A DNA stretch of 64,000 bases from a virus, in IMG/VR virus record IMGVR_UViG_3300020401_000014, positions 1-64,000 of that record, one strand, 5' to 3'. Positions 4,393 to 55,284 of this stretch are shown here, one piece after another. A model generated the notes under the pieces. That model had not been told where the DNA came from. It made no database searches and worked only from the letters and a program-made list of their open reading frames with translations. Position 1 is the first letter of the stretch; every line of letters begins with the position of its first letter. Both the position numbers and the translations under genes were made by a program.

Positions 4393-4412
4393 TATAATTT
4401 ATATGCTATACT
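4384..4412 (+). promoter_or_regulatory. sigma70-type promoter
   Basis: TTGACA-17nt-TATACT, 6 nt before GTG 4419. Confidence 0.8.
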
Positions 4413-35844: not shown

Positions 35845-36559
35845 GCTTAGGCATCAACTCTCTTGGCCATGTCACAGAAGCCAACGATGAAAGGTTTTCT
35901 ATTTTTGTGCCAGAACACCTTTTAATTGAATTAACTAATTTTTTCTTATCGTTAATTGGCATTGATTTATCTGACTTGATTTCTTGAACAGATAGCTCAA
36001 TATATACTTCAATAATTTTCTTCCATTGTTCTTGTGGCGATTCTCCTTTGCCGATGTAGTCTAGAAACATCTCTTCAATTGGAACTTTATAAAAAATTTC
36101 GCTACATAATAAATCGTCGATGATCTGATTAATTTTATTTTTAGCACAGGCATACTCTATTCCAGTAAAAAATTCTATTAAATTTTTTTTAGACTCAAAA
36201 CTTATTTTTTTTGCAGAACCTCTAGACAGAGGGTTTTTATCTTCCGGGAAAGAGTTTTTTATTTCTTGAACAAACTCAGGGGTGGGCTGCGCCTCTCCAT
36301 ATACTATTTGCCCAGATTTAACTCCATCAGGGGAATCAAATGAAGCCTCTAATATGCGCGTTTCATCTTTTATAATTATTTTTTTATTTCTATAAATTTC
36401 AAAACACTCAAAATGAAATGCGGGCTTATATATAATATTATGATCTCCAATAAATCGACCATGATTACAAAATAAACCCCTTGTAATAAAACCTCCTTCA
36501 GAGAAATATTTTAATTTAACTACATTATTACAAACTGCACCATACAATACATCATCCAT
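35825..36559 (-). CDS. Hypothetical protein
   Basis: 244-aa ORF directly downstream of the giant ORF. Confidence 0.65.
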   Translation of the reverse strand: MDDVLYGAVCNNVVKLKYFSEGGFITRGLFCNHGRFIGDHNIIYKPAFHFECFEIYRNKKIIIKDETRILEASFDSPDGVKSGQIVYGEAQPTPEFVQEIKNSFPEDKNPLSRGSAKKISFESKKNLIEFFTGIEYACAKNKINQIIDDLLCSEIFYKVPIEEMFLDYIGKGESPQEQWKKIIEVYIELSVQEIKSDKSMPINDKKKLVNSIKRCSGTKIENLSSLASVTWPRELMPKPSWFSS

Positions 36560-36577
36560 AATATTATTATTTATATT

Positions 36578-39500
36578 TTATTGTGCAATATCAATTTCTA
36601 TATTTGTGTTGTGCCAATCTTTAATATTGATCATTGACCCAAGTAATGCTAATGCAAGCCCTCCGTTTTTGACTTTTAATATACCCGGAAACTTATTGTC
36701 TATTTCTGACTTCCACTTTTCTATTACCCCATGTATTCTAGCAAGACATTGATGGTGTTTTTTACCGCCAATATATATAACATCATGCTCAATCCATTTA
36801 TCCATACTTCTGTTTACTGACCCATCATCATTTTTATAAATGTCTGGATAACACTCCACTCCCCATTCGAATAAATCATTATCGCTAAGCCCTGCGTTTT
36901 GCGCTGCAGATCTAGCCAAATCTTCAGAAGAGTACTCTCCAGCAACACTTTCTTGAAGCCAATTCCTTCCAGCAATCCACTTACATTTTCTAGCATCATA
37001 CCAAACATAATCTAGACCCTCTCGCTTTTTGGCTAAATTTATTATATGTTTTTCTGCTAGAAGTTTTGCTTGATCTTTGCTAATTTGATGGTGTTTATGA
37101 TGTAATCCTACCTGAAAAGTCGTTGCAAGTGAGGTGGTATTATGTGACTCAGAATCTGTATAAGATTTATTTATTTTATTAGAATATGTATCCTTAAAAA
37201 TATCAAAATAATCAGACATTGCGATTCCTGCAAATCCGCCTTCAAGAACGTATGCATATTTATCGCTAGATGTATCAGATGGATTAATAAAACCTTGATG
37301 CCTGTATGTGGTCCCAGAGTCAATATAATTCATAGACTGATTATTTACATTTGTCTCCATGGACCATATCTTTCTAAGTTCAAAGCGCAAGTGCCTACGG
37401 TTTCTAATAGCGTGCGCAAAGTCTTCAAAGTAATTAAATTTTTTGTCGCTAACCAAAGCAAGTTTTCCGTCTGCAGATTGACTGTAAACATCCTCGCTTT
37501 GTATGGATACCGAATTAGCATAAATATCACCAAGAAACTCCATGTAATCATTTTTTCCTAAAAATGGAAACCTGACATCATTATTGCCATGCATACTCAC
37601 AACGTCCCAACTCTGAAGGCAAACGTAAAGTCCTCCCAAAACCAAGTAAACTTTACCCTTTACAAATTCAAAGTTAGACCTAAATTCGCCACCTCGATAA
37701 TATAACTCTGGTCCATATAAAACCGCACTCACAACTAAATTACCTGCGGAATTTGTATACTTATATAAAATTTGTGAATGATCTTTTTCTTCTTTGGTTA
37801 GCAACAAACCAGTACTTTCGACATGCATTTTATTTCTATTCGGCAAATAAAAAGCGCCATTAGGCACTTGAATTATGTCGTCTTGTTTTGTAAAACTTAA
37901 GTCCCCGCTAGCATCGATCGAATACAAACTAATAGCAGAATCATTTTTCCATGTAGATATATTCGATTCAGTCATTGTGTTCTCGCAATATACATTCGAT
38001 ATACCAGTAGGAGATCGATCAATATAATAATTTTCTTTTAACTGGTTGTAATAATCTGTAGAAAATTTAGGCGAACAATAAAAATCTTGATTTATCTCTC
38101 TTCCCCAAATATCTGTAGAAGCATCAGATCCTTTTGTAAAATTAGAAAATCCAAAATTATGCATTTCTGAAACAGCCTCCATATAGTCGGTAACTTGACC
38201 AAACGGATTTGGAAAAGCAGGTTTAGGAAATTTATATTTTACGTTTTTGACGGCTTGCAATGTTGGCGAAGTTTGCACCATGTCTCTTACATGGTAAAAA
38301 ATCTCAATAGGTATATTGTTTGCTATTTCTTCTGGGTCAGTTAAGACATTACCGCTTTCGTCTAAAATGCTTTCAACTCCATTAGCGTCAATTTGATTTT
38401 TCATTGCTTGAATCTGTGCGGATGTTCTTACTGCAAATCTAGGATTCACGCTGATTTTGGTTCCGTTAGCAAAAGTATATTCATAGTTTTGAATATAATT
38501 TGGAATGTTAGTGGGCACTCGGAAGTTAAAAATCCAAAACACTGGAGAATCATCTGGCTGGGTATTATCGCCTGCTGGAATTTCAGATTTGCTTTTCCTT
38601 TCATAACCAGAATCTCCCGTAGCATTTGTATGATATTCATCATAGTAACCAAGTACGTGATAAAATCTACCGAGAGAGTGCATATAATGAAATTTTTGTT
38701 GAGAAAAACCTGAATATCCTTGGAAATTAGACCAATAATTATCGAAGTATGAATTGTAAGCTGCTGACTGCGCCTGACTTTTTACTGCATACCAAAATGG
38801 ATAGTCTATACCTTTTATGTTTTTCGCTTGAGCAGATAAAGGTTCTGCCCGAGTATTTTCAGCCTCAACAATTGGATGCGTTTCATGCGGCATCAAGTCT
38901 GCAGGGGTCTCGTTATTTTGATTTGCTTTATTCCATTCAGCTCTATCAAAAAGATCAAAGTCCTTGATTTTATGAAAGTTAGTTAAATCGCTTTTTCTAG
39001 CAAAAGAAAAATCTATTTGCGAATGACCAATTGTTTGTTGCGGAATATACTCTTGCCGTAAATACGGATCTCCATCGACAATACTGTTTGAATTTAATTT
39101 TGCAGAAGTTACCTGGTGTGCGGTTCCAATTTGAGAACGAAATCTATGCAGTTCTTCGGGCTCAATTGCATTCCACCCGTTTTCATCAATGCCTGCATCT
39201 CTGGAATTGGACACAACAGGCTCTAAAGAATTAGAATTTACTGTAGAAACAAAACAAAAACCCTTATGAAAAACTCTTTCGCCGATATTATACTCAGACT
39301 TACTAACTATCTTATCAGATTCAAACCCATACCCCCATCTAGGAATGCTTTCCCCGAAAGGCAGTGAAGCCGGGTCCAGCATATAAGATCCAAGCAGAAA
39401 TTTATCGTGAGAATTTAAATCAAAAATTGTTAATTCTTTAAAAGCATCCGTTAGGCCTGAAAAGTCATCTTCGTTAATTTGCGAAGAAAACCATTCATCC

Positions 39501-42500
39501 CAAATACTATCTTCAAAGTTCGAAGGGTTGAGTATTTGCGAATCATTTAAAAAGCCTGCCAGCATGTTACTGTTAACATTACCCCCATAAATGTTGTCGA
39601 AATTTTTCATATCATAAGTGGTTAATGATGTAAAAACAGACCAATTCTCTTGCTTTGCAGCGTATTGAATAAAATTATTACTTTCTGACCACGGATTGTA
39701 ATATTGAGTATTATCTCTATTTTGCCAAGGCGCCGCAGATTCTGAAATGTGTGGTTTTGCCTCGAAATGAGTTTTATCGCTTAAAGGAAAAGTATTGGAA
39801 TTTTCAACTCCGTAATAATTTTCCATAAACGTAAACTCAGAAAAGGCTTGGTGATCTTGAATAGAGGTATCAATATTTTTTGAGTATTTTAGTTTTTTAG
39901 ATACATCTTTAACCAAATCCCACCAGCTTAATAATCCCTTTACAGGAGTCCTCAATGCTGCGGGAATTAGCGCTGGGTATTCCGTCGAATGCTCAAAATT
40001 TAACCAAGAGTAAACATTATCCCTTAAAGACTCTAAACCGGTTTTGTGGCCATATGGATTAGAAGAAAAATCTATAAGCCCAATATCTAACCTATCAATA
40101 CCTGCATAATTTGCTGGAGTATAATGTCCTATCACAAACCTTTGCGTAAGTGGGGTTGCATATTTGGCGCCTAATCCTTGCATAAAAGATGGAGCAAATG
40201 GATCTAAAACTGGCCAAGAGTAATATAATTCTCCGTTAAATAGAGTGTTCTTACGACCGAAACTAGAACTATTGGACAGCTCCCTGTCTAAAATTCTTCC
40301 GGTTGGTGCGTGAGAACTAACATGAGGCTTCCAGTTATTCGCGAGCAATTGAAAATCAGCGAAATTTAAAGATCCATATACGGTATTTTGTGAAACAAAA
40401 TTCAAATTAGAATAATCCCCTATATCCATATTAGTCGCGGCCTCAATCTCGGTTTGCCTTAAAGTTCCAGTTAACTGCTCCCATCTATTTGTATCATCTG
40501 CTGGACTTTGACTGTTGAACGCTTCTCCTGCAATTTCTACTTTTGCCCGATAAACTTGCCCTTCATCGAAAACGTATTCTCCTTCATTGTAATCATAGCC
40601 CCCAGACCAAGTTTGCCCCACAAATGCCTGCGAAGAGTTCTCGAAAGCAAAAAGATATCTTCCTCGGGCTCTATTAAAACCTAAAAAGTCAACGCAATTT
40701 AAGCTTCTTCCGCCGGAAATTGTTTGATTAAATTCAACGCCAACAGGGTCTGGATGAACCCAATCTCTGACAAAACCCTGCTGTAAATCAAGATAAAGAC
40801 TAGAAACATGAAATGGATTTTGAAGCCGAACTGCATTGGTCAAATCGTAATTAAAAGCTTTCACGCCAGCATGCTTTCTTATTATATTTTGACTTTCTGG
40901 AGATCTTACGCCCAACTCAGATCCCCTTTCGTTTGCGATTAATGCAGAATTATCTTTTAATCCAGACATTACGCCTCCAGTACCTGAAGTATATCCGAAA
41001 TTATAACCCCTAATATTTAATTTATTATTTGAATCAACATATATCATCGATGAAAAACTAAACAAATTTAATTTTTCTACAATAGTTTGTATTATATTTT
41101 TATTTTGTAAATCTGACACTTCCTCCCAATACAGCTCACTTCCTGCTTGCCCTGGAATGAAAACCATATTATCTTCAGTAAACGAAGACTGCCAATTTCG
41201 GCACCTTCTGTTTTTCATAAACAGGCTATTTACTTCGTTAGAAAAATTATCTGCTCCATTATTCTGTATACATTTGTATATTTTATTTTCATATGTTACA
41301 AGGGACGGAACTGTAGACTCGAATGCACTAGGTAAAGCATTAAATTTTATAGCACTATCTCTTCCAGAAGATAACTCCGGTCTTTCGGTTTGTATATATG
41401 TTTCAGTTTCTGCGTCATAAATTTGACCGCTTTTAATATGGGCTTGATAATTTTTTGCAGAGTCATATGGCTCAATAAAACTGTTTATTTCAGGAGTATT
41501 ATAAGTATGGCTAGTATATTGACCAACCCTGGAATTTAATGAAATTCTTGACTCGCTCATTTCTTTATATTTTTCTCCTTTTAAATAAAATTTATTTTTA
41601 AACTTTTGAGATAAAAATCTTTCCATAAACCAATCTTCTTTATCCCAAAAATCTACAGATTCAACAAATACAGTTTTGGCTTTAATTTCCGTGCCATCGT
41701 TATCTAAAATTAATGCTGGAGCACCAAGTTCTTGATAGTTTTCGAAGTAAGGATTAAGCCCGACCCCACCTGCCCTGTAAGATTTACCTCCAGATATAAA
41801 TGAAACGCAATCGCCCACTTTACTCATAAACGTAACACCATCAGCTATAAAACTCGGACCCTCAAGAAACTCAGACCGAAAACCAAACACTGTACCAAGC
41901 GGATTATCAGAGAGATACTCTCCTTTTTTGCTGCAAGAAATTTCATTATTTCCAATACCATATAAATTATTAGAAGAATCTAAAAATATACTGCCTTTTC
42001 CAGAAGCGTCAATTGCGGAAATTCTTACATTCTGTACAGCAGAAACGCTTTCAAAATTAAATATTTGGTGCGGATTTAAATAACAACGATCTGTTATGAA
42101 AAAACTATCTCCATAAGAATATCTGTGTTGAGACTTCATTCCTTTTGTATGATGAATTAAATCTTTTTTGCCTGCGAATATTATTACGTTATAAAATGAA
42201 TTATCGAATGGAGGGCTAGATGAATATCCAGGAGCCCATTCTCTTTCAAACATTTCACCGATAGTTCTAGCGCACACAACTTCACTAGACATTGCGTACC
42301 TATTAGAATTTTCAAAAGTAGCTTCCATTTCTGTCCAAAATCCAAGATCAAGCCACTTGCTACCAATAACTTTATCAGTTACTTTTACATTTGTGTTTCC
42401 TTGTGGAAGATATAGAATAGAAAAGAACGTTTCGTTTCTAACAAATACTTTATCTCCCACTGAATAGGTTGAGCTTTGTTTCCATGCGTTTACGGGCCAG

Positions 42501-45500
42501 ACTGGTTTAGGTATTTGTTTCCAGTGGCTTTTTTGATCAAAAGGCGATTGTGCATTATTTTGTATACATTCTAAATATAAAATATCATTGTTTACAGACC
42601 TTCCGTATAAATCATCTTGGATTAATCCGTTAAAATTATCATTGCGGGTAAACTTTTTATCAATTTGCTTGAAAGAGTTATCTCCAACGCCAAAAACTTT
42701 TCCAGATTCAGTTAATATTAAAGCATGAGAATCACCTAACTCTACAGATTTAGCCTTATCTCCGCCATATTCACTTGGATCATAAACCACTAATGATCCA
42801 TCTAGATTTGAGTCTGAAGAAGTATTTTGTTTGGTGATAGAATATCTTTTTGTTATGCCTTTTGGTGCAGGAACTTTTATTTTCTTTTCGTCAACCTGAG
42901 ACAAGCTGCCTATAAAGCCCACTTCTTCAGTGTTATTATCTTTTAATGATACGAAGTATAATGTTCTGTATAATTTTTCAGATTCGGCAAGTTCTATCTT
43001 CACAACGTCACCATTATTATATACGTACGAATCAAGCTGATTGTATGTTTGATCTATTTGAATTTCTCCAACAAGTACTTCGCCAAAAGAATCAAAAGAA
43101 ACAAGCCCATCATTATTATATGGGATAGATCCTGGGCTATGCTGAATTAGATTAAATCCATAATTTAATAAAAAAACATCAAAACTTGATCCGTTATCCC
43201 TGCGCGTCTTTTGATCGCTTTTAACTTCAAACCAGCAATTATATTTTGTAGTAAAATACCACTCACTGTCGGAATATTGTTTTAAATTACTAGGAGGTTC
43301 ATGTGTTCCGTTGCTTTTTGTAGTCCAACCAAATATATCATCATAAAACCAGTCTGCATTATGGCGCATAGAATCTATGCCCCTATAATATGAAGCGCTA
43401 GACTTAATTCTTTGAGATCCTCCAGCCTGAAGATATTGAGACTTTTCAACTCTTTGATTCCAAAACATTTGAGAATTCCAATCATAAAGACCTAATAATG
43501 CTAGTGGTACGCCAGGATACTGCGCTGAAAGTTGAGACTCTAATCCAGGCTGATTGTCAAAATAAAAATTCCAGTCTGTTAATTCTCCAAGAAAATAATT
43601 TACCCAACTCTTTTTCGGGAACCCTGCACTTAAAAACCTTTCGGTAAAATCAGACTGAATATATGTTTCAGAAATTTCGTAGTCGAATGGACTTGCGTCT
43701 AAACCAGTTATTGAACTATAATACTGCGAAACACCACCGCTTTCGAGAGAGAAACTTTGTGGGGTGATGTTTTTTTCGGCAGCTTGAACTTGAGTTAAAG
43801 GAGCATTTGTAACAGGGTCTTGAGTAACAACATGAAGCGTTGTACAACTGCTTAAGAACATAGGCTCGTCAAAAACTTCTACAAACGGAGTAACAGAAGC
43901 GGTAATTTCGTATTCTTCATTTAGCAAATTTAAATCTATTTCGCTGACTGTATCTAAATGTTCAGCAACAGGAACAACAAAAAAGCCTTGAGGTGGAATT
44001 GAGTTGCTTGCAGAGTAATTAAGAGTATCATTAAATAGCAAGGTAATTTCCATTTCAAGCTCTCCGTTTTCATCGAAATCTGCATAAGAGCCAAAATTAT
44101 GAGATGATCCAGATCCAAAATGCGAATTAACATGAAATGCGTCATGCCGCTCAAATTGAGCATCGCTCGTTAATTCTGCTCCTGGAGCACTTGGAAAACC
44201 GTCTATCAAACTAGCGTTATATAATGTTATGGCGGCTCCATAACCCTGTACGCCAAAACCTATAATTCTATTTTCATCCCGGTTAAGTATATGGTCAGAT
44301 GCAATGCCCCATTGATCAGCACTAAAATTTTCAGGACGAGAGCCCGTAAGACCAGATGAATTAATTATAAGGTCACGATTCGGGCCAGAAAAAGTAAATG
44401 TGCCATTATCATCATATGCTTCATAAATATAATTATCCCATCTAAAAAACCTTTGAAGAAACGCATATTGCCTAGCGTCGGCATCAAATTTATTATCATG
44501 CATGAAATCCCGCCCAGATGACGGTGCAAAATTTGGATTAAAGTAATAAAATCTTGTGCCGCCCAATGTAACAAATTCACCATTTTGGACATAAACATCA
44601 GGCACAGTTTTCCGCTGGCTATCGTCTTGAAAGTGGAAATCTGCAGTGCCCGTAGGAAGCATTGCTCCACTTGCTGATACTGTATTATATCCATCACCTA
44701 CGAAATTGTCGACCAAGCCGATTTCGAGAGGGTTACCGTTGTATATTATTGGTAGCGATCCAGCGCCAGGAAATCCTGCAAAACCAGGCGTCTCAATACC
44801 CCCAAAGCCCGGGGTGTCGTCGGAAAGATAGGCCCCAATCGAACTGAAACCGTACATAAATGCAGATCGAGAGAAATCCAGAAAAAGTGGGTCGCCTGGG
44901 TATTTGTGCGTTAGCGGCCATGTACTAAACAGAGCGTCAACATCTGTCATATACAGAGGTTTATAACCAGCATCTTGAAATATATAAAAACCAAAAGCTA
45001 CTCCTGTACTATTAAAATTTCCAGGTTTCTTGGTAAATTTTACTTTGAATGTTATAGATTCTGCTTCAACATTTAAATTGTACCTCCATACATCCAGAGA
45101 ATCTCTAGATCCAGTAGGAACAGTATCAAATGGACTAAGCATTGAAAACGCTTCTCTTACCGCGCCCCCTCTATAATGACCTAGCGCTCCTGATGCAATA
45201 TTGTTTCCAGAAAATTCTGTAACAAAATCAACATCTTCAGGAATATAGTTCCAACCTCCATTTCCGTAAATTATACCACCTTCTGTTCTGTAGCCAGGCC
45301 AAGCAGGAAGATTAGAATTAGAATCGTTTTTAATATTAAATTTATCGCCCCAATGCGCAGGAATCCAAGTTCTAGTGTTCCCAGCTTGATCGCCTGTTGG
45401 TATGGTGATATCAACAACAGTATTTACATCTATCTGTTTTGATCCATCGTTATCTAGTGCGCCGACTATTTCAAAAGAGTCGTCCACGATCAGATGCTCT

Positions 45501-48500: not shown

Positions 48501-51500
48501 GTTACCCCCGACACAGAGGCCTCCTCAGTTGCATTTGAGTAATCAAAGTCGCCGTCGTTTTCTTCAAAGATTTTAACTTCTTGATTGCTGATCTGATCAA
48601 ATGGATACATTTTGTTATACGCAACACTTTCATCGCCATATTCATCTAGATCTATTTTTAGATCAGAAGTATCTTCAAGCAGCCCAATAAACCCAAACTC
48701 ACTACTATCTAAGCCAGACGCATACAATTTATTATTATTTATAATAAACCTATTCTTACAGAACATTGATGCTCCAGAACTTGCAAACTTTGAGCTGGTT
48801 TTTTCGGACTGATTTAGACCTTCAAACGGAATCTCGCTTACTGCGGTGGGGTCAGGATTATTTACTTTAACCTTAAAAGATATTACTCCAGAAGAAACCA
48901 ATCCCTCTCCTATGGAATTTATAGAATAGCCAGAAATTAAAGATGGATGCGAGTCTGTTATTTCAGGTTCATCAACAATGTTTTGCAATAATGTAGATTC
49001 TGTATTACCAAAAACACTTATGCAAATAGTTTTTTCTGATTCGCTAAATTGTCCATCATTTTGATATTCAAAATTTAATTGTATTTTTTCATCGTAATTA
49101 TATATTTTTGAGATATTATCATTTGTTCTAATTAGAACATCATCATCTCCATGCATTCCGGCGAGTAAACTGACCTTTCTAGGATTATGACCACCGTCGC
49201 CAGGCTGTAGATCTTTTTGGCACACAAAAAACACGATATCTCCTCCATGATCTGGTTCTCCCGAATAATTCGAAACTAAATTAAAAACAAGCAGCAAATC
49301 AGGCTCGGCTTGAACCGAGCCTTCTGTATGACATTCATATATTTTATTATCAAAAACAATTTTTTCACCAATTTTATAGGATTTTCTTTTTGATAATGAT
49401 GGATAAAATTCGTTAGGCCCACTATACTCACTGGGTCCATATTTTTGTATATTAGATTGCGAGATACCCTCTTCTTCATCAATCAATTCAAGAATTTCTT
49501 GGTATATGTAAATGTAATCCCCAGCACTATAATGAGAGCTTTCGTGATAATGTTGAACGATTGACCACTCGGGAGGCTCTAAAGCAGGGTTTAAGTTGTT
49601 GTTTAATTCTTTTGATATATAAATTTTATTTTGATAAGTCACTATATCTCCCTTAGAATAAACTTCGGACGGAGACCACTCAAGATTTAATAAATCACCA
49701 GTTTGAGAATCGGATCCAGGACCGTCAACATCCTTCCATTTAGGAGAACTTCTAAACAAATCTGAATGGTCGGAGATTTGGTCATAAAAATTATTTAGTT
49801 TTTTAAATCTAGAAAGAAGAGTATCTTTAGTAGATATTTCTGTATAAACTTGACTATATTCACCTTGTAGGTCTACTTGGCTATCTCCGCCCACAAATAT
49901 ATTTGAGTTAGAAAATAAATTTAAATCCACACCACTATTTATAATTGACCCTTCAGAAGAAAAGGGCGGAACATCGTCCGGCGCGGTAATAGGCTCGTTA
50001 TAGTCAGTGTTTTTGTCGTATTTTACAAATCCTGAATCTCCTGAACTAAGTTCAGCTGCAAAAATTACACCATCTTCTGTTTCATTATTATTTTGAAAAT
50101 TATTAGTAGGATTATTATGAGAAAGCAATCTATAATGATTTACTGCTCTATTAGGAGTATTTTTAAATAATTCTGTTTTCCCCGCGGATAATTCATAATA
50201 ATTACCACCATATTCCACAATACTGTACCTACTATATTCCCCATCTTCTGACCAGGTAACAGCATTTGCTGCAAAAGATGTTGTATCCTGATTACCAGAT
50301 GTCGCCTCGCTCATAGTGAAAAACGGTATTCTCAATCCGTCTGCATCCACTGGCGGATTACTAATAGACAAATTAGTAAATAACAAATCAAAAGAAATAC
50401 TTTTTTGATAATCTTCTCTCGGGGATCTAAGATATTCTCCTATTACATTTCCACTGGAAATTGAATTTAAAATTGCAGAATAACTGGTGATTAAAGTTCC
50501 ATTTTCTTCTTCTAGCTCAGGAGTAATTTCTAAAGATTCATCTTTTGATATTTCAATTGTTTCTCCATTATATTGCCGATCTGCTTGACCGACCTGATTT
50601 CCGCTTTCATCAAGAACTGTATATTTAAATTTTACAGTTGGATTATATTTTTCAAATAATTTTTGTAAATTAAATTTATCTGACAACTTTTCATCCACAA
50701 TAGAAGGGTTTCCTGACGCAAAATCTCTAGTAAAATCTACGTCAAAATTAGAATCCAGCCACGACTTAAAGTACTCTACTGCAGGATGTGCATTGTTAGA
50801 CACCAGAGGGTGATTTGCGGTCAAGCCTTTTCCGGTCACCCAGTTTACTCCAAATTCTGCTTGGGAAATGTAGGGGTGGTAAATTGAAGTCACCCTTAAA
50901 TTTTCAAGATTAAGCTCGGGGTTTGAATCGCTAATGTCCAAAGCATTTATCATGCTTGACGTAATATTTTTTACATTCGAACTCCAATAAAACGCTTCGC
51001 CTCTTACATCAAACGTTTTAACTTCGTCTGAATAAACTTTTATTTGTGATGAAAGCACGGTTTGATCTGTTTGTTCATAAACACCATCATTTAAGTAAAG
51101 ATAATCAAAAGACCTCGGGGACACAAAGTAAGTATTAGATTGATTATCTGACCCATATAATTTTTTTAATTCTCCTGTTCTTTTGGCGATAGGCTGCCAC
51201 CATTTTGTTCTAATTAATGAATGTACCGTGGAGCTTGTGCTGTAATTAGCAGGCCCGGATAACTCTAGATTAATGTTATAATTATAAACAGCTTTTTGTG
51301 ATTCTGTTTTTATGATTGTATCAAAATCAATTACTGGATCTTCTAAATCATAACCTGATGGAACCTCCTCAACCAAGCAAAACATCTTAATTTTTACGAA
51401 AAAGTCGTCGCCCATTTTTACTGCATCACCAATTTCGTAATAATTTTCAAAAGCAAGGTCGTAAGAACAATTTCCAGATCCATAAACATCTTTTTTATTT

Positions 51501-54500
51501 ATAGAGTTTCCATCAATTCCGTAGTAATCAATATTAGTATGGCCTGTATCCAATTGGCCTTGATTAAATTCTGCTTGAGTAATTTGTTTCCAAATTGTTT
51601 GAGATATAATATTTTGATTTATTAATTGATCAAACCTTTGGTTTGATTCCTGAACATTGGACACAAATTTATAATTTTTCGAACCTACGCTCGAATCTAT
51701 GTAGCCAGGAATTATTCCTGCGTAATCTTCAGGATTTTCGAGGTCTACATCAGAAGTATTTTTAAGGCATTTATAAACATGCACTGGCGTTTCAGCCTCA
51801 GCCGTAGAAAACAATAAAGACAACTCTTGCTCACTGTAACCAGATTGTTCTTCTAAGCCAAAAGTCCTAATCCATTCTTCATAAGTTTTATAAGTTCCAT
51901 CTGGCGACAAAACTTTAACTGGCCCAGAAGTTACAACAACCAGATCTCCAGGCGAATAATTACCTCCTTGAACCCATGACGGTAAGTTTGTTTCTGTATT
52001 GTTTTCTGCAATTTTATTGATGATTCCTTCTTCTGATACTGCCCGTTTCCAACCAAACCCAAGCGTCACGGCGCTTCTGCCGGATGTAGGCCAACTATTA
52101 GAATTGGCTAAAACTCTAAATGAGGTATATGTTGTAATTGAGGTTACTGAGGTGTTTATCCAAGCTAAATTATCATCTACCAAAACCAGCTTTGACCATA
52201 AACCAGGGTGTTCTAAAGGGTTTTTATCTTGGCTTGCTTTTTTCGCTCTAAAAAAATGATAAGCTTGTTTCGGCGAGAATCCAGCATTTTGTTTAATACA
52301 TTTGTAGTAAACCTTACTTGCACCCTCCCAACAGTAAATAATATCATCTATACTGTAATTTTGATCATGAAACCAAGGGTTTGTGCTTGATGTTGTTGTT
52401 TTTTCCCAATAATCTCCAGAAGAAAGCTTTACAATGGTTTGCGTTTTATATTCTTTAGAATCACTCCAGCTTATTGCTGCGTCTTCTAGTTTAATCGCGC
52501 CAGAACTTGCGCCAGTTTGTTTTCCGTGAGCGCTACCAACAACTAATTTAAATAAATCGCTCTGTTGCTGGGCAAAAGTTTCTCCAAGATCTAACCAGAG
52601 ATTATTTGTCATTGTGCCATGGTCTTCTAATTCAGAAAATTCTTCTTTAAGCTCGTCTGCGTTTATGCCGGGAAATCCAGTCTGCATAAGTCCTACAATC
52701 CTTTTAAATTTTGAAGATGATAGCGCGTCTGTTCTGAGAAGAATTGGGCGATACGCTCTATCTATAACTCTAGTTTCATCCTCATATACTAAACCAGCAT
52801 TTGCTTGCTGATCTGTTGGATTTAATGCGTTACCTAGAATCAAATAGTGAAGCGGCTGAGCCTGCGTTGTATCTGCAGCAACACTTTGGGTATTGATCAT
52901 TTGAGTAATATTCCCGTCGGTAATCGGATTATAACTATAATTTCTTGGTTCAGGGGGCTGACCATATTGCTGGAAAGGCCAACCAGAACCATGCAATCCA
53001 TTAAGAGGGTTGCCGTTAGAAAAAAGCTGCGGCGTAACCATTTCAATTCTTTGCCTAGAGAGCAGGTCTTCAATCATCAATACATATTTGCCAAGCAAAT
53101 GACTACCCTTATTTCCACCAGGATGCACGCCCCCTCTTCTTCTTGCATGAACATAGCCACGAGACATATAATAACAAGGAATTAAATTATCATACGTATA
53201 ATGAACAAGATCTCCAGTTGCATTTTCAATACTCACATTAGAAGGTGAAAAACTGTCGACATTTAAATATGAATTTATTTTATTATTGTCTATAGAATGG
53301 GTAGCAAAAGTAGATACGCCAGATATTGATAAAAATTTTATGCTAGTAGTTCTTCCGAATGTTACCGCTAACCTTGGTTGGCCTCCATGGTCTTTTCTTA
53401 AGTTTTTCGTATATATTAAAATATCATATTGTCCATCTTGAAAAGGTCCAGAAGAATTATTTGCCCCAGAATACCAAGGCCGACATTTACTTGAATGATA
53501 AAGATTTAATTTATTTCCCCATTTAGCCATTAAGTGCCCATATATATTTGATCCGCCACCAAAATCATTCATTCTTATTCTTGCTTTTGTTGGAATTATT
53601 GATTCGTTAGCAAGATTCTTGGAAACAGAACTAGAGTCTACTTGAAATCCTCTATGTGTCGCCTGCTTATTAACCAAATAGTCATATATAGAGCTTAATG
53701 AAGAATTAGGTCGATTAGTTGATGATGCATAATCTCTCCAAAAACTAGATGCATTATTCCATGGTATTTTGTCAAAATCATAATTTCCAGAAGCATCTCT
53801 TGCAGGAGTCTCAGTATTTTTTATACAAACTGCCAGTCTTGGGTGTTCGGTAGAATCAAAAGATTCATCCCAATTTGAAGGTATACTTGTGGTATCAATT
53901 TGTCCACTTACAATTGGCTGAAAATAGTTTACAAAATCTCCAACAGAATAAACCTCTGAAGAATTAAAAACTTGCGCGTCGATATTTGGGTCTGTAGGGC
54001 TATTTGTTGCGTCAATAATGTTAGTGTTTGCACCCAAATGTGCATTTAAAGATGTAGACGCAAATCCAAATTCTTTACTAGGCAAGGGTGTTTTTCCTAC
54101 GCCCGAAATAGCGAACTCTGGATAATTAACAGCTAATCTATCAAATCCAATGCCATCATCTAAATTAGGGCTTGGTTTTTTGGTTCTTACCACTCCGCCT
54201 CCCATAGAAGCACCTCCCGTAGGCCTTAAGGCTATAGCTGCTCCATTTTTATCACGCGGCAAAAAAGTTGCATTACAAACAATAAAAGGCATGTTAATAA
54301 ACTCAAACAAATTTAAGCATATTTCGTTTTCATTTACAGCATTACCAGAACCATTAATAAAATCATTCCTAGAAACCAATCTGACCCCTGTATGGTGAGT
54401 GATATTTAATTCCTCCATCGACTTCCATGAACTCGAAGAAGGTGGGTTAAAATCGCCAGCATTATTACCATCAACACAAACATATAAGTTTGTTGAGCTT

Positions 54501-54730
54501 GGTGTCGGCCTTTCTTCTCTTGACAAAAGATCCAGATCGTCACTATAGTAAATTGCAATGTGCCCGACTTGATACTGTGCCCCTAGACGAAACCTAGCGT
54601 ACCACATTGGCAGAGCGCCCGGTAAAGCCGCCCTGTGGGCGCCAAATATATTTCTATTAGATATTCCGGCAAAGGCGGGTTCTGCAGACAAAAAGTCTAA
54701 ATTAAAATCAATATGTACTCCGCCGCCCAT
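36578..54730 (-). CDS. Giant 6050-aa adhesin/tail-fibre-like protein
   Basis: Uninterrupted 18.15-kb ORF; about a dozen CBM5/12-like WxxxxxYxxGDxV motifs, RCC1/BLIP-II-like blades and a DUF4214-like motif; no signal peptide. Confidence 0.7.
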   Translation of the reverse strand: MGGGVHIDFNLDFLSAEPAFAGISNRNIFGAHRAALPGALPMWYARFRLGAQYQVGHIAIYYSDDLDLLSREERPTPSSTNLYVCVDGNNAGDFNPPSSSSWKSMEELNITHHTGVRLVSRNDFINGSGNAVNENEICLNLFEFINMPFIVCNATFLPRDKNGAAIALRPTGGASMGGGVVRTKKPSPNLDDGIGFDRLAVNYPEFAISGVGKTPLPSKEFGFASTSLNAHLGANTNIIDATNSPTDPNIDAQVFNSSEVYSVGDFVNYFQPIVSGQIDTTSIPSNWDESFDSTEHPRLAVCIKNTETPARDASGNYDFDKIPWNNASSFWRDYASSTNRPNSSLSSIYDYLVNKQATHRGFQVDSSSVSKNLANESIIPTKARIRMNDFGGGSNIYGHLMAKWGNKLNLYHSSKCRPWYSGANNSSGPFQDGQYDILIYTKNLRKDHGGQPRLAVTFGRTTSIKFLSISGVSTFATHSIDNNKINSYLNVDSFSPSNVSIENATGDLVHYTYDNLIPCYYMSRGYVHARRRGGVHPGGNKGSHLLGKYVLMIEDLLSRQRIEMVTPQLFSNGNPLNGLHGSGWPFQQYGQPPEPRNYSYNPITDGNITQMINTQSVAADTTQAQPLHYLILGNALNPTDQQANAGLVYEDETRVIDRAYRPILLRTDALSSSKFKRIVGLMQTGFPGINADELKEEFSELEDHGTMTNNLWLDLGETFAQQQSDLFKLVVGSAHGKQTGASSGAIKLEDAAISWSDSKEYKTQTIVKLSSGDYWEKTTTSSTNPWFHDQNYSIDDIIYCWEGASKVYYKCIKQNAGFSPKQAYHFFRAKKASQDKNPLEHPGLWSKLVLVDDNLAWINTSVTSITTYTSFRVLANSNSWPTSGRSAVTLGFGWKRAVSEEGIINKIAENNTETNLPSWVQGGNYSPGDLVVVTSGPVKVLSPDGTYKTYEEWIRTFGLEEQSGYSEQELSLLFSTAEAETPVHVYKCLKNTSDVDLENPEDYAGIIPGYIDSSVGSKNYKFVSNVQESNQRFDQLINQNIISQTIWKQITQAEFNQGQLDTGHTNIDYYGIDGNSINKKDVYGSGNCSYDLAFENYYEIGDAVKMGDDFFVKIKMFCLVEEVPSGYDLEDPVIDFDTIIKTESQKAVYNYNINLELSGPANYSTSSTVHSLIRTKWWQPIAKRTGELKKLYGSDNQSNTYFVSPRSFDYLYLNDGVYEQTDQTVLSSQIKVYSDEVKTFDVRGEAFYWSSNVKNITSSMINALDISDSNPELNLENLRVTSIYHPYISQAEFGVNWVTGKGLTANHPLVSNNAHPAVEYFKSWLDSNFDVDFTRDFASGNPSIVDEKLSDKFNLQKLFEKYNPTVKFKYTVLDESGNQVGQADRQYNGETIEISKDESLEITPELEEENGTLITSYSAILNSISSGNVIGEYLRSPREDYQKSISFDLLFTNLSISNPPVDADGLRIPFFTMSEATSGNQDTTSFAANAVTWSEDGEYSRYSIVEYGGNYYELSAGKTELFKNTPNRAVNHYRLLSHNNPTNNFQNNNETEDGVIFAAELSSGDSGFVKYDKNTDYNEPITAPDDVPPFSSEGSIINSGVDLNLFSNSNIFVGGDSQVDLQGEYSQVYTEISTKDTLLSRFKKLNNFYDQISDHSDLFRSSPKWKDVDGPGSDSQTGDLLNLEWSPSEVYSKGDIVTYQNKIYISKELNNNLNPALEPPEWSIVQHYHESSHYSAGDYIYIYQEILELIDEEEGISQSNIQKYGPSEYSGPNEFYPSLSKRKSYKIGEKIVFDNKIYECHTEGSVQAEPDLLLVFNLVSNYSGEPDHGGDIVFFVCQKDLQPGDGGHNPRKVSLLAGMHGDDDVLIRTNDNISKIYNYDEKIQLNFEYQNDGQFSESEKTICISVFGNTESTLLQNIVDEPEITDSHPSLISGYSINSIGEGLVSSGVISFKVKVNNPDPTAVSEIPFEGLNQSEKTSSKFASSGASMFCKNRFIINNNKLYASGLDSSEFGFIGLLEDTSDLKIDLDEYGDESVAYNKMYPFDQISNQEVKIFEENDGDFDYSNATEEASVSGVTMVDSEGGNTVFIFNNKLYGFGHNQGYSLGLCADANDNFGIGQRASSLSLQEKSSEATQDMMEAFLHFDAEYYLKLQATGSDYNLGDERGVFADDQSKVLMAWKYFKNFGFYKSLPAEYELICHSVINSSQISNPYNGYISNLNWSFTDQYNSSKSWIAQSGVMSTVSAYAPPYKPSEFWQTGGLHAFNIDQKYAPTDSNQMVIGDIDAYQEVSIFENFKRLNNKTSDKSEYIETIKSNAAQFKFLSDKVSTVDLSFGGSEPSIGWNGILVSEDALNQNHPNFSSSIINPASQTPATSLSRFKIGDLIGASSLDSFGTTTNFRSFYNTNLIYSNEDPNNQIMPKETLYVQGKPFWDPIIGCPDHVVFDFVSGEYPEGSDDSKDNVLGLYKLVSESNITFGNYPRFSKSLEISNLAGGERWQDGLSGNIKSVIPARTYVPRATKLTDEDVTWASTNKYSTFYINSSGQVKALGSVCACPAFEIQGFDDSDLSSEGNLNLNSEIDIQNFDSFGNLRLSPDPYVYSNDAWGLVYSEKGTVDSSNLQNKSDILSGESKIAGKDNSIYNFFNPLDGSFITSAPLESDVTTHNGIEVNQFGIYSPTSVFHVPWFSGVNSDATVDAVYRLILNRASDTAGEAYYTARGYLTVYELVQHIIDEGINHGGEYDPSIHGEDPTPASVKRDFEFLKTFGNTGISYASSTPAKHLIQISPDFFGAVNIENCERQEVNGTYRMATAFNDLNQWYNHPFNSDARSEGYGIWVSEKDTAYGKILIFFDAAFKLWRMQYSDFYVQETFSSGADPKIELLIAMQYHYEDANAADGTGYTKTSKANNKTPADVDSWVVGTGAWLNQDVEEGGEAQDPVVVSNTQHTFYDSTRVSWPARRFYSAYNWNTTQHAHLTIFPIPLDATVTNPSFTFGTDGHTNLFSPDGVSHYFNRRDWQGARPVEIIRNYTFPTEAINLVSSESLRDALALQNFNVAEDDDEYYHKGTVHSNFSGDAVSMPGEHLIVDDSFEIVGALDNDGSKQIDVNTVVDITIPTGDQAGNTRTWIPAHWGDKFNIKNDSNSNLPAWPGYRTEGGIIYGNGGWNYIPEDVDFVTEFSGNNIASGALGHYRGGAVREAFSMLSPFDTVPTGSRDSLDVWRYNLNVEAESITFKVKFTKKPGNFNSTGVAFGFYIFQDAGYKPLYMTDVDALFSTWPLTHKYPGDPLFLDFSRSAFMYGFSSIGAYLSDDTPGFGGIETPGFAGFPGAGSLPIIYNGNPLEIGLVDNFVGDGYNTVSASGAMLPTGTADFHFQDDSQRKTVPDVYVQNGEFVTLGGTRFYYFNPNFAPSSGRDFMHDNKFDADARQYAFLQRFFRWDNYIYEAYDDNGTFTFSGPNRDLIINSSGLTGSRPENFSADQWGIASDHILNRDENRIIGFGVQGYGAAITLYNASLIDGFPSAPGAELTSDAQFERHDAFHVNSHFGSGSSHNFGSYADFDENGELEMEITLLFNDTLNYSASNSIPPQGFFVVPVAEHLDTVSEIDLNLLNEEYEITASVTPFVEVFDEPMFLSSCTTLHVVTQDPVTNAPLTQVQAAEKNITPQSFSLESGGVSQYYSSITGLDASPFDYEISETYIQSDFTERFLSAGFPKKSWVNYFLGELTDWNFYFDNQPGLESQLSAQYPGVPLALLGLYDWNSQMFWNQRVEKSQYLQAGGSQRIKSSASYYRGIDSMRHNADWFYDDIFGWTTKSNGTHEPPSNLKQYSDSEWYFTTKYNCWFEVKSDQKTRRDNGSSFDVFLLNYGFNLIQHSPGSIPYNNDGLVSFDSFGEVLVGEIQIDQTYNQLDSYVYNNGDVVKIELAESEKLYRTLYFVSLKDNNTEEVGFIGSLSQVDEKKIKVPAPKGITKRYSITKQNTSSDSNLDGSLVVYDPSEYGGDKAKSVELGDSHALILTESGKVFGVGDNSFKQIDKKFTRNDNFNGLIQDDLYGRSVNNDILYLECIQNNAQSPFDQKSHWKQIPKPVWPVNAWKQSSTYSVGDKVFVRNETFFSILYLPQGNTNVKVTDKVIGSKWLDLGFWTEMEATFENSNRYAMSSEVVCARTIGEMFEREWAPGYSSSPPFDNSFYNVIIFAGKKDLIHHTKGMKSQHRYSYGDSFFITDRCYLNPHQIFNFESVSAVQNVRISAIDASGKGSIFLDSSNNLYGIGNNEISCSKKGEYLSDNPLGTVFGFRSEFLEGPSFIADGVTFMSKVGDCVSFISGGKSYRAGGVGLNPYFENYQELGAPALILDNDGTEIKAKTVFVESVDFWDKEDWFMERFLSQKFKNKFYLKGEKYKEMSESRISLNSRVGQYTSHTYNTPEINSFIEPYDSAKNYQAHIKSGQIYDAETETYIQTERPELSSGRDSAIKFNALPSAFESTVPSLVTYENKIYKCIQNNGADNFSNEVNSLFMKNRRCRNWQSSFTEDNMVFIPGQAGSELYWEEVSDLQNKNIIQTIVEKLNLFSFSSMIYVDSNNKLNIRGYNFGYTSGTGGVMSGLKDNSALIANERGSELGVRSPESQNIIRKHAGVKAFNYDLTNAVRLQNPFHVSSLYLDLQQGFVRDWVHPDPVGVEFNQTISGGRSLNCVDFLGFNRARGRYLFAFENSSQAFVGQTWSGGYDYNEGEYVFDEGQVYRAKVEIAGEAFNSQSPADDTNRWEQLTGTLRQTEIEAATNMDIGDYSNLNFVSQNTVYGSLNFADFQLLANNWKPHVSSHAPTGRILDRELSNSSSFGRKNTLFNGELYYSWPVLDPFAPSFMQGLGAKYATPLTQRFVIGHYTPANYAGIDRLDIGLIDFSSNPYGHKTGLESLRDNVYSWLNFEHSTEYPALIPAALRTPVKGLLSWWDLVKDVSKKLKYSKNIDTSIQDHQAFSEFTFMENYYGVENSNTFPLSDKTHFEAKPHISESAAPWQNRDNTQYYNPWSESNNFIQYAAKQENWSVFTSLTTYDMKNFDNIYGGNVNSNMLAGFLNDSQILNPSNFEDSIWDEWFSSQINEDDFSGLTDAFKELTIFDLNSHDKFLLGSYMLDPASLPFGESIPRWGYGFESDKIVSKSEYNIGERVFHKGFCFVSTVNSNSLEPVVSNSRDAGIDENGWNAIEPEELHRFRSQIGTAHQVTSAKLNSNSIVDGDPYLRQEYIPQQTIGHSQIDFSFARKSDLTNFHKIKDFDLFDRAEWNKANQNNETPADLMPHETHPIVEAENTRAEPLSAQAKNIKGIDYPFWYAVKSQAQSAAYNSYFDNYWSNFQGYSGFSQQKFHYMHSLGRFYHVLGYYDEYHTNATGDSGYERKSKSEIPAGDNTQPDDSPVFWIFNFRVPTNIPNYIQNYEYTFANGTKISVNPRFAVRTSAQIQAMKNQIDANGVESILDESGNVLTDPEEIANNIPIEIFYHVRDMVQTSPTLQAVKNVKYKFPKPAFPNPFGQVTDYMEAVSEMHNFGFSNFTKGSDASTDIWGREINQDFYCSPKFSTDYYNQLKENYYIDRSPTGISNVYCENTMTESNISTWKNDSAISLYSIDASGDLSFTKQDDIIQVPNGAFYLPNRNKMHVESTGLLLTKEEKDHSQILYKYTNSAGNLVVSAVLYGPELYYRGGEFRSNFEFVKGKVYLVLGGLYVCLQSWDVVSMHGNNDVRFPFLGKNDYMEFLGDIYANSVSIQSEDVYSQSADGKLALVSDKKFNYFEDFAHAIRNRRHLRFELRKIWSMETNVNNQSMNYIDSGTTYRHQGFINPSDTSSDKYAYVLEGGFAGIAMSDYFDIFKDTYSNKINKSYTDSESHNTTSLATTFQVGLHHKHHQISKDQAKLLAEKHIINLAKKREGLDYVWYDARKCKWIAGRNWLQESVAGEYSSEDLARSAAQNAGLSDNDLFEWGVECYPDIYKNDDGSVNRSMDKWIEHDVIYIGGKKHHQCLARIHGVIEKWKSEIDNKFPGILKVKNGGLALALLGSMINIKDWHNTNIEIDIAQ

Positions 54731-55244
54731 TTTTATAAAAAGTTACTTGAGAAAATTTTTTATCTTTGGGCGTGATTTCGGCTCCCAAAAACTTCAACCA
54801 TCGGATGCCTAATTTATTTTTATTTTCTACTATGTTTACAAGTATATCAAAATCTTCTCCAAATAGCCAATCAAAGTGGTCTTTTGATATTTTCATAAAT
54901 TCATATGCGCCCAGAATGCTTTTTAGGTTGCCATAACTTTTTTTCATTCCTCCTTTGAATTTTAATATGTCAAGAGAGCTTTTGGTTCCCAAGGCCCAGA
55001 CTCCGCCCACTCTTTCGTGAGGAGACTCATGCACGCCAAGGCACCCAACCAACGAATCATCGCTAAAACAAAACGAGAGGCTTCTTACTGAAGAATTAAA
55101 TGTACTAACAACATGCTCTTGATAGTTTTCCCAGCCCAAATATTGTGAGTGCCTTAAATCAACCTCTCTAGGATGCATGCACAACTCCATAATATCTCCA
55201 TCTTGCACGTCCCTGACATAGCCATTTTTACCTAAAATTTTCAT
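54708..55244 (-). CDS. GNAT-fold protein, T7 gp13/DUF2833-like
   Basis: LVGCLGV...GGVWALGT...LVNIVENKNKLGIRWLKFLGAEI. Confidence 0.55.
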   Translation of the reverse strand: MKILGKNGYVRDVQDGDIMELCMHPREVDLRHSQYLGWENYQEHVVSTFNSSVRSLSFCFSDDSLVGCLGVHESPHERVGGVWALGTKSSLDILKFKGGMKKSYGNLKSILGAYEFMKISKDHFDWLFGEDFDILVNIVENKNKLGIRWLKFLGAEITPKDKKFSQVTFYKNGRRSTY

Positions 55245-55284
55245 ACCGAACCTTATATATTATATACACAAGAGGCTGAATTTA

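What the first reader, a model, noticed from the sequence alone, without database searches (positions are those of the whole stretch)
36578..54730. 6050-aa mosaic adhesin with about a dozen CBM5/12-like motifs, RCC1-like blades and a DUF4214-like motif
A single ORF takes up 28% of the window. Aromatic WxxxxxYxxGDxVxxxGxxY-type motifs occur near 54570, 53950, 52440, 52350, 51950, 51420, 50260, 49650, 49520, 49350, 42460, 40580 and 39280. RCC1/BLIP-II-like blades occur near 48720, 48450, 47110, 42700, 41970 and 41020. AVYRLILNRASDTAGEAYY near 46620 resembles DUF4214, a surface-protein domain. There is no signal peptide. The inference is a very long multivalent glycan-binding fibre; its size is in the range of the largest phage proteins I know of.
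Basis: partly seen in the sequence, partly recalled or inferred. Interest (0 to 1): 0.72.

Follow-up and report, generated by a model that had tools for sequence, protein, structure and literature searches.

The report
Giant conserved marine jumbo-phage protein
An uncultured ocean phage of about 200 kb and its relatives all carry one intact gene of about 6,000 codons, a conserved 750-residue base followed by a long non-repetitive chain with sugar-binding-type modules; it is probably a virus-particle protein that grips host or particle surfaces, but that is inferred, not shown.

Summary
The ORF is real: 36578..54730 (-), 6050 aa, 678 kDa, pI 4.8, with no stop, transmembrane segment or signal peptide. 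Intact homologues of 5875-6591 aa (29-57% identity) occur in independent assemblies, including two IMG/VR phage genomes that CheckV rates complete (205 and 211 kb).

Y..G[DE].[VIA] occurs 10 times against 0.5 in shuffles. aa 1675-1830 passes Pfam's CBM_5_12 cut-off. Two further modules (aa 252-336, 755-852) fold like chitinase CBM5/12 domains. One RCC1 blade passes Pfam, and seven conserved blades lie in a 3+4 pattern. DUF4214 is below threshold.

New findings:
- It has no internal repeats, so it is not a repetitive fibre.
- Its first ~750 aa form an orphan module. That module also heads proteins of 1007-4770 aa elsewhere and a 3847-aa protein in a 128-kb sister phage.
- It is the fastest-evolving gene of its neighbourhood, with swapped cassettes between near-identical relatives.
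- It lies far from the lambda-type tail and fibre genes. It is translationally coupled to a T7 gp13-like gene behind a conserved GTGTA box.

Best reading (about 0.45): a virion-borne adhesin with a conserved anchor and a variable glycan-binding distal part. Main rival: a packaged or ejected internal protein. Virion location is untested.

The parts
36578..54730 (-). Giant ORF, 6050 aa (P0001), 678 kDa, pI 4.8
   Evidence: intact homologues of 5875-6591 aa
52481..54730 (-). Conserved N-terminal module (aa 1 to about 750). It is an orphan fold and holds the invariant block RGYVHxRRRGGVHPG...SRQRIExVTPQ (aa 524-574). It is shared with proteins of 1007-4770 aa and with the 3847-aa protein of G005.
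53723..53977 (-). CBM5/12-like module, aa 252-336
   Evidence: AF2 pLDDT 64-77; VIA Z 5.4-5.6 to chitinase CBM5/12 domains
52175..52468 (-). CBM5/12-like tandem module, aa 755-852
   Evidence: AF2 pLDDT 58-78; VIA Z 3.7-4.3, with CBM5/12 domains dominating the top rows
49241..49708 (-). CBM5/12 modules, aa 1675-1830 (motifs at 1691, 1734, 1785)
   Evidence: Pfam CBM_5_12 38.1 bits against cut-off 26.2, two stretches
47051..48760 (-). First group of three RCC1-like blades (aa 1991, 2081, 2530)
   Evidence: invariant columns; weak RCC1_2 in the G003 homologue
46361..46663 (-). DUF4214-like stretch (aa 2690-2790), below threshold
   Evidence: 14.3 bits against 23.2
40955..42736 (-). Second group of four RCC1-like blades (aa 3999, 4242, 4305, 4558), with a CBM-like motif at aa 4089 between them
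   Evidence: Pfam RCC1_2 40.2 bits and 41.7 bits in G003
36581..36781 (-). Conserved C-terminal ~65 aa (VIYIGG..H.QCLAR...W...PG...NG.L..LG), found only in the ~6000-aa subfamily
54708..55244 (-). 178-aa homologue of T7 gp13 (internal virion protein A). Its 3' end overlaps the giant's start by 23 nt. It is 60-80% identical among relatives.
   Evidence: phrog_308 E 2.6e-12; Pfam Phage_T7_Gp13 E 0.0064; tblastn to Rhizobium phage RHEph01 gp51, which lies directly after tail tube B
55259..55269 (-). GTGTATATAAT promoter-like box 25 nt upstream of the gp13-like ATG, conserved in 5 phages
35825..36559 (-). 244-aa downstream partner gene of unknown fold that diverges in step with the giant
   Evidence: no Pfam, PHROG or PDB match

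Best explanation
The ORF encodes one very large, soluble, acidic, aromatic-rich, beta-rich multidomain protein. It is a signature gene of an uncultured lineage of marine siphovirus-like phages of 128-211 kb. I read it as a virion-borne adhesin built on the usual receptor-binding-protein plan. A conserved N-terminal module of about 750 aa would dock the protein on the particle. A long, fast-evolving, non-repetitive distal chain, extended here to about 5300 aa, carries CBM5/12-type and RCC1-type modules that would bind polysaccharide on the host envelope or on chitin-rich marine particles. The upstream gp13-like protein, translationally coupled and under the same GTGTA promoter-like box, and the co-diverging 244-aa downstream protein would serve its assembly or mounting. 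Shown here: the ORF, its conservation, the module identities, the N-terminal/distal architecture, the rate contrast, the cassette swaps and the synteny. Inferred: presence in the virion, the docking role of the N-terminus, glycan binding, and the roles of the two neighbouring genes.
For: Intact homologues of ~6000 aa in 8 protein clusters and 4 IMG/VR contigs, two of them rated complete by CheckV. The N-terminal ~750 aa are collinear from residue 1 with proteins of 1007, 1027, 1075, 1322, 2683 and 4770 aa and with the 3847-aa protein of the 128-kb sister phage G005 at the same genomic position. So the base is conserved and the distal length varies. P0015 (1027 aa) ends in a CBM-like motif. CBM5/12 is supported by Pfam and by fold, and RCC1_2 by Pfam. 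Small CBM5/12-like modules of solved phage tail fibres appear among the fold matches (9rkv, 9b45). Rate contrast for window against G004: MCP 90.5%, TerL 87.6%, gp13-like 80%, giant about 42-46%. Against G005: MCP 74%, giant 25% over the N-terminal part only. P0007 and P0008 are mostly 90% or more identical (200-aa windows), apart from a few moderately lower stretches, two fully replaced cassettes (21% and 25% identity) and the missing N-terminus of P0008. The CBM-like motif is enriched in this protein and in no other large protein of G004. No transmembrane segment, enzyme domain or basic stretch was found.
Against: There are no proteomic or imaging data, so virion presence is untested. The gene is not in the tail module; the relatives already have a J-like protein and fibres of 3418, 1832, 1575 and 627 aa about 70 kb away. 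It has no fibre-type repeats or recognisable trimerisation or fibre domains. AlphaFold gave low confidence for most of the 1781 residues tried (mean pLDDT 36 and 45), so about 90% of the chain has no fold assignment. The closest annotated neighbour is a homologue of an 'internal virion protein'. The genes downstream (PhoH, subtilase) are not structural.
Confidence: 0.45

Rival explanations
1. It is a packaged internal head protein that is ejected into the host, a functional analogue of T7 gp14-gp16, N4 vRNAP or crAss-like cargo proteins, with the gp13-like protein helping to load it.
For: It lies directly behind, and is translationally coupled to, a homologue of T7 internal virion protein A (gp13). 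In T7-like genomes that gene is followed by gp14, gp15 and gp16 (gene order and names in PMC4925675 and PMC4517105). It lies on the packaging/head side of the genome, upstream of TerL, portal and MCP, and not in the tail module. Fast evolution and cassette swaps also fit an ejected counter-defence protein.
Against: No PHROG or Pfam similarity to gp14, gp15 or gp16, and no lytic transglycosylase, polymerase or other enzyme domain. No hydrophobic segments. Its recognisable modules are types typical of extracellular glycan binding. The phage has a 2343-aa tape measure, which in siphoviruses normally does the channel-forming job. A beta-rich 678-kDa chain would have to unfold to pass through the tail.
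Confidence: 0.2
2. It is a non-virion protein made in the infected cell, for example one acting on or binding host envelope polysaccharide from inside, or released at lysis to bind glycans or particles.
For: The GTGTA box is also found before non-structural genes.
Against: A 6050-aa investment conserved in every member of the lineage, with an anchor-plus-variable-tip architecture and a gp13-like partner, fits a structural protein better. It has no signal peptide for export and no catalytic domain.
Confidence: 0.12
3. It is a polyprotein that is cut, by the phage S8 subtilase or the prohead protease, into several virion proteins.
For: It has mosaic conservation with low-identity linkers. A conserved subtilase gene lies two genes downstream in the ~200-kb members. 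Giant phage head proteins are often processed (own knowledge of phiKZ-like and T4 proteins).
Against: No split version of the gene was found: the 'shorter' search returned only a contig-end fragment. The subtilase is not next to the homologue in G005. No cleavage motif was identified.
Confidence: 0.1
4. It is an assembly artefact or a chance open frame.
For: None found.
Against: The same frame stays open over 17.7-19.8 kb in homologues at 29-57% identity from ENA, Logan, JGI and NCBI assemblies.
Confidence: 0.01

Closest known systems
Phage receptor-binding or tail-fibre proteins with a conserved N-terminal anchor and exchangeable distal modules (for example T4 and lambda-type fibres; Agrobacterium phage 7-7-1 tail fibre, PDB 9rkv)
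   Same: Conserved N-terminal module, a distal part of variable length, cassette swaps between close relatives, the fastest evolution in its neighbourhood, and small CBM5/12-like beta modules.
   Different: No fibre repeats and no PHROG fibre family match. It lies outside the tail module. It is a single non-repetitive 6050-aa chain. The N-terminal module is an orphan, with 13 hits among 1.84 billion representatives.
CBM5/12 chitin-binding modules of bacterial chitinases, chitin deacetylase and LPMO GbpA (Pfam PF02839; PDB 4tx8, 4ny2, 4hmc, 1ed7)
   Same: The W...Y..GD.V.Y..G..Y signature, a Pfam score above the cut-off for aa 1675-1830, and fold matches for aa 252-336 and 755-852.
   Different: The modules are not attached to any catalytic domain, most copies are too divergent for Pfam, and the ligand is untested.
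RCC1-like propeller virion proteins of Rak2/121Q-type jumbo phages (earlier scan notes) and RCC1 repeats (PF13540)
   Same: Blades with the G-x-V-y-x-x-G-x-N signature, one of them above Pfam's cut-off.
   Different: The seven blades are dispersed in a 3+4 pattern over 2600 residues with other modules between them. No contiguous propeller domain is recognised (WD40_RLD 24 bits against 150).
T7 internal virion proteins gp13-gp16
   Same: The upstream gene is a gp13 homologue and the giant takes the place of gp14-16 in the gene order.
   Different: No sequence similarity to gp14, gp15 or gp16, and no SLT domain. The phage is a lambda-type siphovirus with a tape measure, not a podovirus.
Giant packaged phage proteins (N4 vRNAP of about 3500 aa; crAss-like cargo proteins) - from my own knowledge
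   Same: One very large polypeptide per phage, conserved within a lineage.
   Different: Those are enzymes with polymerase motifs. None was detected here.

Membership tests
CBM5/12 (Pfam PF02839) | HMM score at or above the gathering cut-off (26.2 bits) | tested here: met
   aa 1675-1830 scanned alone: 38.1 bits, E 1.6e-9, two stretches. In the 3000-aa scan it scored only 22.5 bits. aa 4695-4770 scored 14.4 bits, below the cut-off.
CBM5/12 (Pfam PF02839) | Small three-stranded antiparallel beta fold with exposed aromatic residues | tested here: met
   aa 252-336: Z 5.4-5.6, rmsd 1.5-1.9 A over 42-49 residues to 4tx8, 4ny2 and 4hmc. aa 755-852: Z 3.7-4.3, with about 10 of the top 16 rows CBM5/12 domains. 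The models have only moderate pLDDT (58-78).
CBM5/12 (Pfam PF02839) | Binding of chitin or another insoluble glycan | not testable with these tools
   Needs pull-down or glycan-array assays.
RCC1 repeat / RCC1-like propeller (PF13540, PF25390) | Repeat HMM above the cut-off (22 bits) | tested here: met
   aa 3994-4022: 40.2 bits; G003 homologue: 41.7 bits.
RCC1 repeat / RCC1-like propeller (PF13540, PF25390) | Contiguous seven-bladed propeller domain | tested here: not met
   WD40_RLD scores 24 bits against a cut-off of 150. The seven blades lie at aa 1991, 2081, 2530, 3999, 4242, 4305 and 4558, separated by 60-1470 residues. No structure prediction of this region was possible.
DUF4214 (PF13946) | HMM score at or above 23.2 bits | tested here: not met
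   14.3 bits, E 0.045, covering 23 of 72 profile positions.
Phage tail fibre / receptor-binding protein | Conserved N-terminal anchor with a variable distal part and mosaic exchange | tested here: met
Phage tail fibre / receptor-binding protein | Gene lies in the tail module, or matches known fibre families | tested here: not met
   No PHROG fibre family at E<=0.1. The tail and fibre genes of G004 lie at 105-162 kb and the giant at 18.7-36.4 kb.
Phage tail fibre / receptor-binding protein | Present on the virion surface | not testable with these tools
   No cultured relative: tblastn against 50,697 phage records found nothing.
T7-type internal virion / ejection proteins (gp14-16) | Follows a gp13 homologue in the gene order | tested here: met
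   the overlap or abutment is conserved in 4 phages.
T7-type internal virion / ejection proteins (gp14-16) | Sequence similarity to gp14, gp15 or gp16, or an SLT domain | tested here: not met
   No Pfam or PHROG hit in the window protein or the G003 homologue.

The most novel reading that the evidence does not exclude
The protein is a new class of phage appendage. It would be a single-chain, non-repetitive, ~680-kDa tether mounted on the head or neck through an orphan N-terminal module with the help of a gp13-like factor. It might be decorated by the adjacent phage glycan-modification genes. It would hold the virion on chitin- or polysaccharide-rich marine particles where its probable PVC-type hosts (Planctomycetota/Verrucomicrobiota group) live, rather than bind the host receptor. 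Its seven dispersed RCC1-like blades (3+4, the number in one RCC1 propeller) might close into one propeller, folding the chain back on itself.
Probability: 0.12. Interest if true: 0.8.

Novelty: new variant of a known kind. Interest (0 to 1): 0.52.

Why it matters
If it is a virion adhesin, it is among the largest single phage polypeptides. It would be an unusual non-repetitive solution to multivalent glycan binding. It would also be the likely host-range or habitat-range determinant of a cosmopolitan but uncultured lineage of 128-211-kb marine siphovirus-like phages. Its orphan, strongly conserved N-terminal module (invariant block RGYVHxRRRGGVHPG) defines a new protein family with members from 1,000 to 6,600 aa. 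Such a family shows how phage proteins grow by distal accretion. If it is instead packaged and ejected, it would be the largest known ejected phage protein, and the first link between a T7 gp13-like factor and a siphovirus.

Tried and rejected
- AlphaFold2 on aa 380-1400 (10-row alignment) and aa 1-760 (15 rows including distant relatives) gave mean pLDDT 36 and 45. Only aa 42-170, 252-336 and 755-852 are usable.
- Foldseek against PDB and BFVD found nothing at E<=0.001.
- VIA matches of aa 393-640 to C2/Ig sandwiches rest on low-confidence parts of the model and are not used.
- phmmer and profile searches of the PDB with both halves, with A5, with the gp13-like profile and with the 244-aa profile found nothing significant.
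- The ESM Atlas on aa 380-760 gave no credible hit.
- For the 244-aa neighbour the Atlas lead was 'RNA ligase' (0.92), but I see no KxDG motif, so I leave it open.
- An AP2-like reading of the C-terminal region was dropped because the segment is not conserved in G003/G002.
- tblastn of both halves, and of P0013 and P0015, against 50,697 phage records found no match.
- The search for related loci with single sequences failed because it chose non-conserved peptides. Back-translated invariant peptides worked.
- Both genome-contig scans found nothing.
So the genomic context of the ~1000-aa relatives could not be read.
- The 'moraphage' paper (PMC12619734) describes a different, myovirus-type lineage.
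- N-glycosylation sequons are not enriched: 71 against 71.8 expected.
Full report
**Observation.**
- The minus-strand ORF 36578..54730 translates without a stop into 6050 residues. It is 678 kDa with pI 4.8 and 13% aromatic residues.
- No 19-residue window exceeds hydropathy 1.37, so there is no signal peptide or membrane segment.
- The core of the CBM-like motif, Y..G[DE].[VIA], occurs 10 times, against 0.53 (maximum 4) in 300 shuffles. The same enrichment (9-10 copies) holds in every ~6000-aa homologue and in no other large protein of a complete relative.

**Is it a real gene?**
- A word-indexed search of 5.8 billion proteins found seven further clusters of 5875-6511 aa at 30-53% BLAST identity (29-57% in the full alignment) from ENA, Logan, JGI and NCBI assemblies.
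- A back-translated invariant peptide (RGYVHxRRRGGVHPG) found four IMG/VR contigs and four metagenome contigs.
- Two of the IMG/VR contigs are phage genomes that CheckV rates 100% complete: G003 (211,117 bp) and G004 (204,906 bp). They carry open frames of 6591 and 5899 aa.
- A frame kept open over 18-20 kb at this divergence rules out artefact.

**What kind of phage?**
- The window carries TerL, PhoH, a sigma factor, DnaE, ClpB, DnaB and UvsX. No cultured relative exists: the best TerL match among 50,697 phage records is 27% identical.
- In G004 (TerL 88% and MCP 90.5% identical to the window) a separate module at 105-162 kb encodes the tail. It holds a 2343-aa tape measure, a gpL-like protein, a gpI+gpJ fusion of 1632 aa, and fibres of 3418, 1832, 1575 and 627 aa.
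- No tail sheath is detectable in G003, G004 or G005. The lineage is therefore siphovirus-like and already has a full set of conventional fibres.
- The giant gene lies about 70 kb away, in a conserved row: gp13-like, giant, 244-aa gene, PhoH, subtilase, sigma, nuclease, TerL, portal, 220-aa gene, MCP.

**The neighbours.**
- The 178-aa upstream gene matches phrog_308 'internal virion protein' (E 2.6e-12) and, weakly, Pfam Phage_T7_Gp13.
- By tblastn it matches gp51 of the T7-like Rhizobium phage RHEph01. That gene sits directly after tail tube B, in the gp13 position, and is followed by gp14-16 (nomenclature in PMC4925675 and PMC4517105).
- It is 60-80% identical among relatives. Its end overlaps or abuts the giant's ATG in four phages.
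- A GTGTA(TATAAT) box lies 20-25 nt upstream in five phages. The same box precedes the portal gene, PhoH, the subtilase and several auxiliary genes.
- The 244-aa downstream gene has no family or PDB match. It diverges in step with the giant: 58, 39 and 23% identity in G004, G003 and G005.

**Anatomy of the protein.**
- There is no internal duplication. BLASTP of the protein against itself returns only the identity hit at E<=50, and Tandem Repeats Finder finds one trivial 44-bp array. It is therefore not a repetitive fibre of the bacterial-adhesin type.
- Conservation is mosaic. The strongest blocks are aa 400-700, 2000-2100, 2500-2600, 3900-4100, 4200-4400 and 5900-6050. The weakest are aa 1500-1600, 3000-3700, 4600-5100 and 5300-5700.
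- Pfam recognises only CBM_5_12 and RCC1 repeats in the window protein and in the G003 homologue. PHROGs gives nothing meaningful.
- Scanned alone, aa 1675-1830 passes the CBM_5_12 cut-off at 38.1 bits.
- AlphaFold2 was poor overall. It gave moderately confident small beta modules at aa 252-336 and 755-852. Their best structural matches are CBM5/12 domains of chitinases and chitin deacetylase, and similar modules in solved phage tail fibres.
- A blade HMM finds exactly seven RCC1-like blades, three at aa 1991-2560 and four at aa 3999-4592. The other family members searched show the same seven blades in the same 3+4 pattern, though they contributed to the HMM seed. No contiguous propeller is recognised.
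- DUF4214 is below threshold.

**The key new finding: a conserved base with a variable extension.**
- An exhaustive HMMER search of 1.84 billion representatives with a profile of aa 1-1200 gave only 13 hits.
- Besides family members and fragments, the hits are proteins of 1007, 1027, 1075, 1322, 2683 and 4770 aa. They align collinearly with the giant from residue 1 to about residue 750-950. All begin with Met-Gly.
- A back-translated peptide from these relatives found G005, a 128.6-kb phage rated 95% complete. Its head genes are 62-78% identical to the window's. Its 3847-aa homologue sits in the same slot, between a 163-aa gene (weak hhalign match to gp13-like, E 5.8e-4) and a homologue of the 244-aa gene.
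- The conserved C-terminal 65 aa of the ~6000-aa subfamily are absent from these shorter forms.
- The family is therefore a ~750-aa orphan module plus a distal chain that ranges from about 250 to about 5800 aa.

**Evolutionary behaviour.**
- The giant is the most divergent gene of its neighbourhood. Against G004 it is about 42-46% identical, while MCP and TerL are 88-90%. Against G005 it is 25% identical over the N-terminal part only, while they are 74-78%.
- P0007 and P0008 are mostly 90% or more identical in 200-aa windows. The main exceptions are two cassettes of 260-440 aa that have been replaced outright (21% and 25% identity). A few other stretches are moderately lower, and P0008 lacks the N-terminus.
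- This is the pattern of host-interaction genes.

**Interpretation.**
- These features fit the plan of a phage receptor-binding or adhesion protein best (confidence about 0.45): a conserved base, a variable distal part, glycan-binding-type modules, acidic soluble composition, rapid mosaic evolution and dedicated small partner genes.
- It is an atypical one. It is single-chain and non-repetitive, it is encoded outside the tail module, and it has an orphan anchor.
- The gp13-like neighbour and the head-side position keep a packaged or ejected internal protein alive as the main rival (about 0.2). Against that rival are the lack of any gp14-16, SLT or polymerase similarity or hydrophobic segments, and the presence of a long tape measure.
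- Non-virion and polyprotein readings are less likely. Virion presence and glycan binding are inferred, not shown.

**Novelty.**
- I found no description of this family. Only hypothetical-protein labels exist, and the literature searches I ran turned up no paper on this lineage or this protein.
- The kind of thing (a modular phage adhesin with CBM and RCC1 modules) is known. The orphan N-terminal family, the size, the non-repetitive build, the 3+4 blade pattern and the gp13-like coupling in a siphovirus-type jumbo phage are new variants on it.

**Limits.**
The RCC1 regions and the C-terminus were not folded.

Noticed in passing
window 54725-54730 (giant aa 1-2); P0012-P0019; L045:1392 onward: Every relative of the N-terminal module, from 1007 to 6591 aa, starts with Met-Gly (MGGG or MGSG). 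The extreme N-terminus itself is conserved across about 22% identity.
   Followed up: partly
window 35825-36559 (-): The 244-aa gene downstream of the giant diverges in step with it (58, 39 and 23% identity against 90, 78 and 74% for MCP). It is kept in the 128-kb sister phage. It has no family match. An Atlas lead to RNA ligase (0.92) is not backed by a KxDG motif.
   Followed up: partly
P0007 aa 3489-3748 and 5519-5955, against P0008: Two whole cassettes are replaced (21% and 25% identity) in proteins that are otherwise mostly 90% or more identical. P0008 (NCBI MAG 'Verrucomicrobiales' CMO74_14610) also lacks the first ~515 aa, probably from a gene-calling or assembly break.
   Followed up: partly
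window 55259-55269 (-); also upstream of genes starting at 12620, 10555, 26574, 34864, 35595 and 56364: A GTGTA(TATAAT) box lies 14-26 nt upstream of many starts, including the portal gene, PhoH, the subtilase and auxiliary genes. It is conserved before the gp13-like gene in five phages.
   Followed up: partly
G004 105,540-162,550 (L035-L038): The tail module of the 205-kb relative holds many very large genes: tape measure 2343 aa, gpI+gpJ fusion 1632 aa, fibres of 3418, 1832 and 1575 aa, and unknowns of 1451, 1114 and 1351 aa. No tail sheath was found.
   Followed up: partly
window 33734-34864 (-): A phage-encoded S8 subtilase with an acidic, proline-rich C-terminal tail. It is 73% identical in G004. 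It was not found beside the giant's homologue in G005.
   Followed up: no
window 40955-48760 (-): There are exactly seven RCC1-like blades, the number in one RCC1 propeller. They are split 3+4 with about 1440 residues between the groups, and the other family members searched show the same count and split.
   Followed up: partly
P0009, P0018 (Tara 0.1-0.22 um fractions): Fragments of this family come from Tara Oceans 0.1-0.22 um size fractions, which fits free large virions.
   Followed up: no
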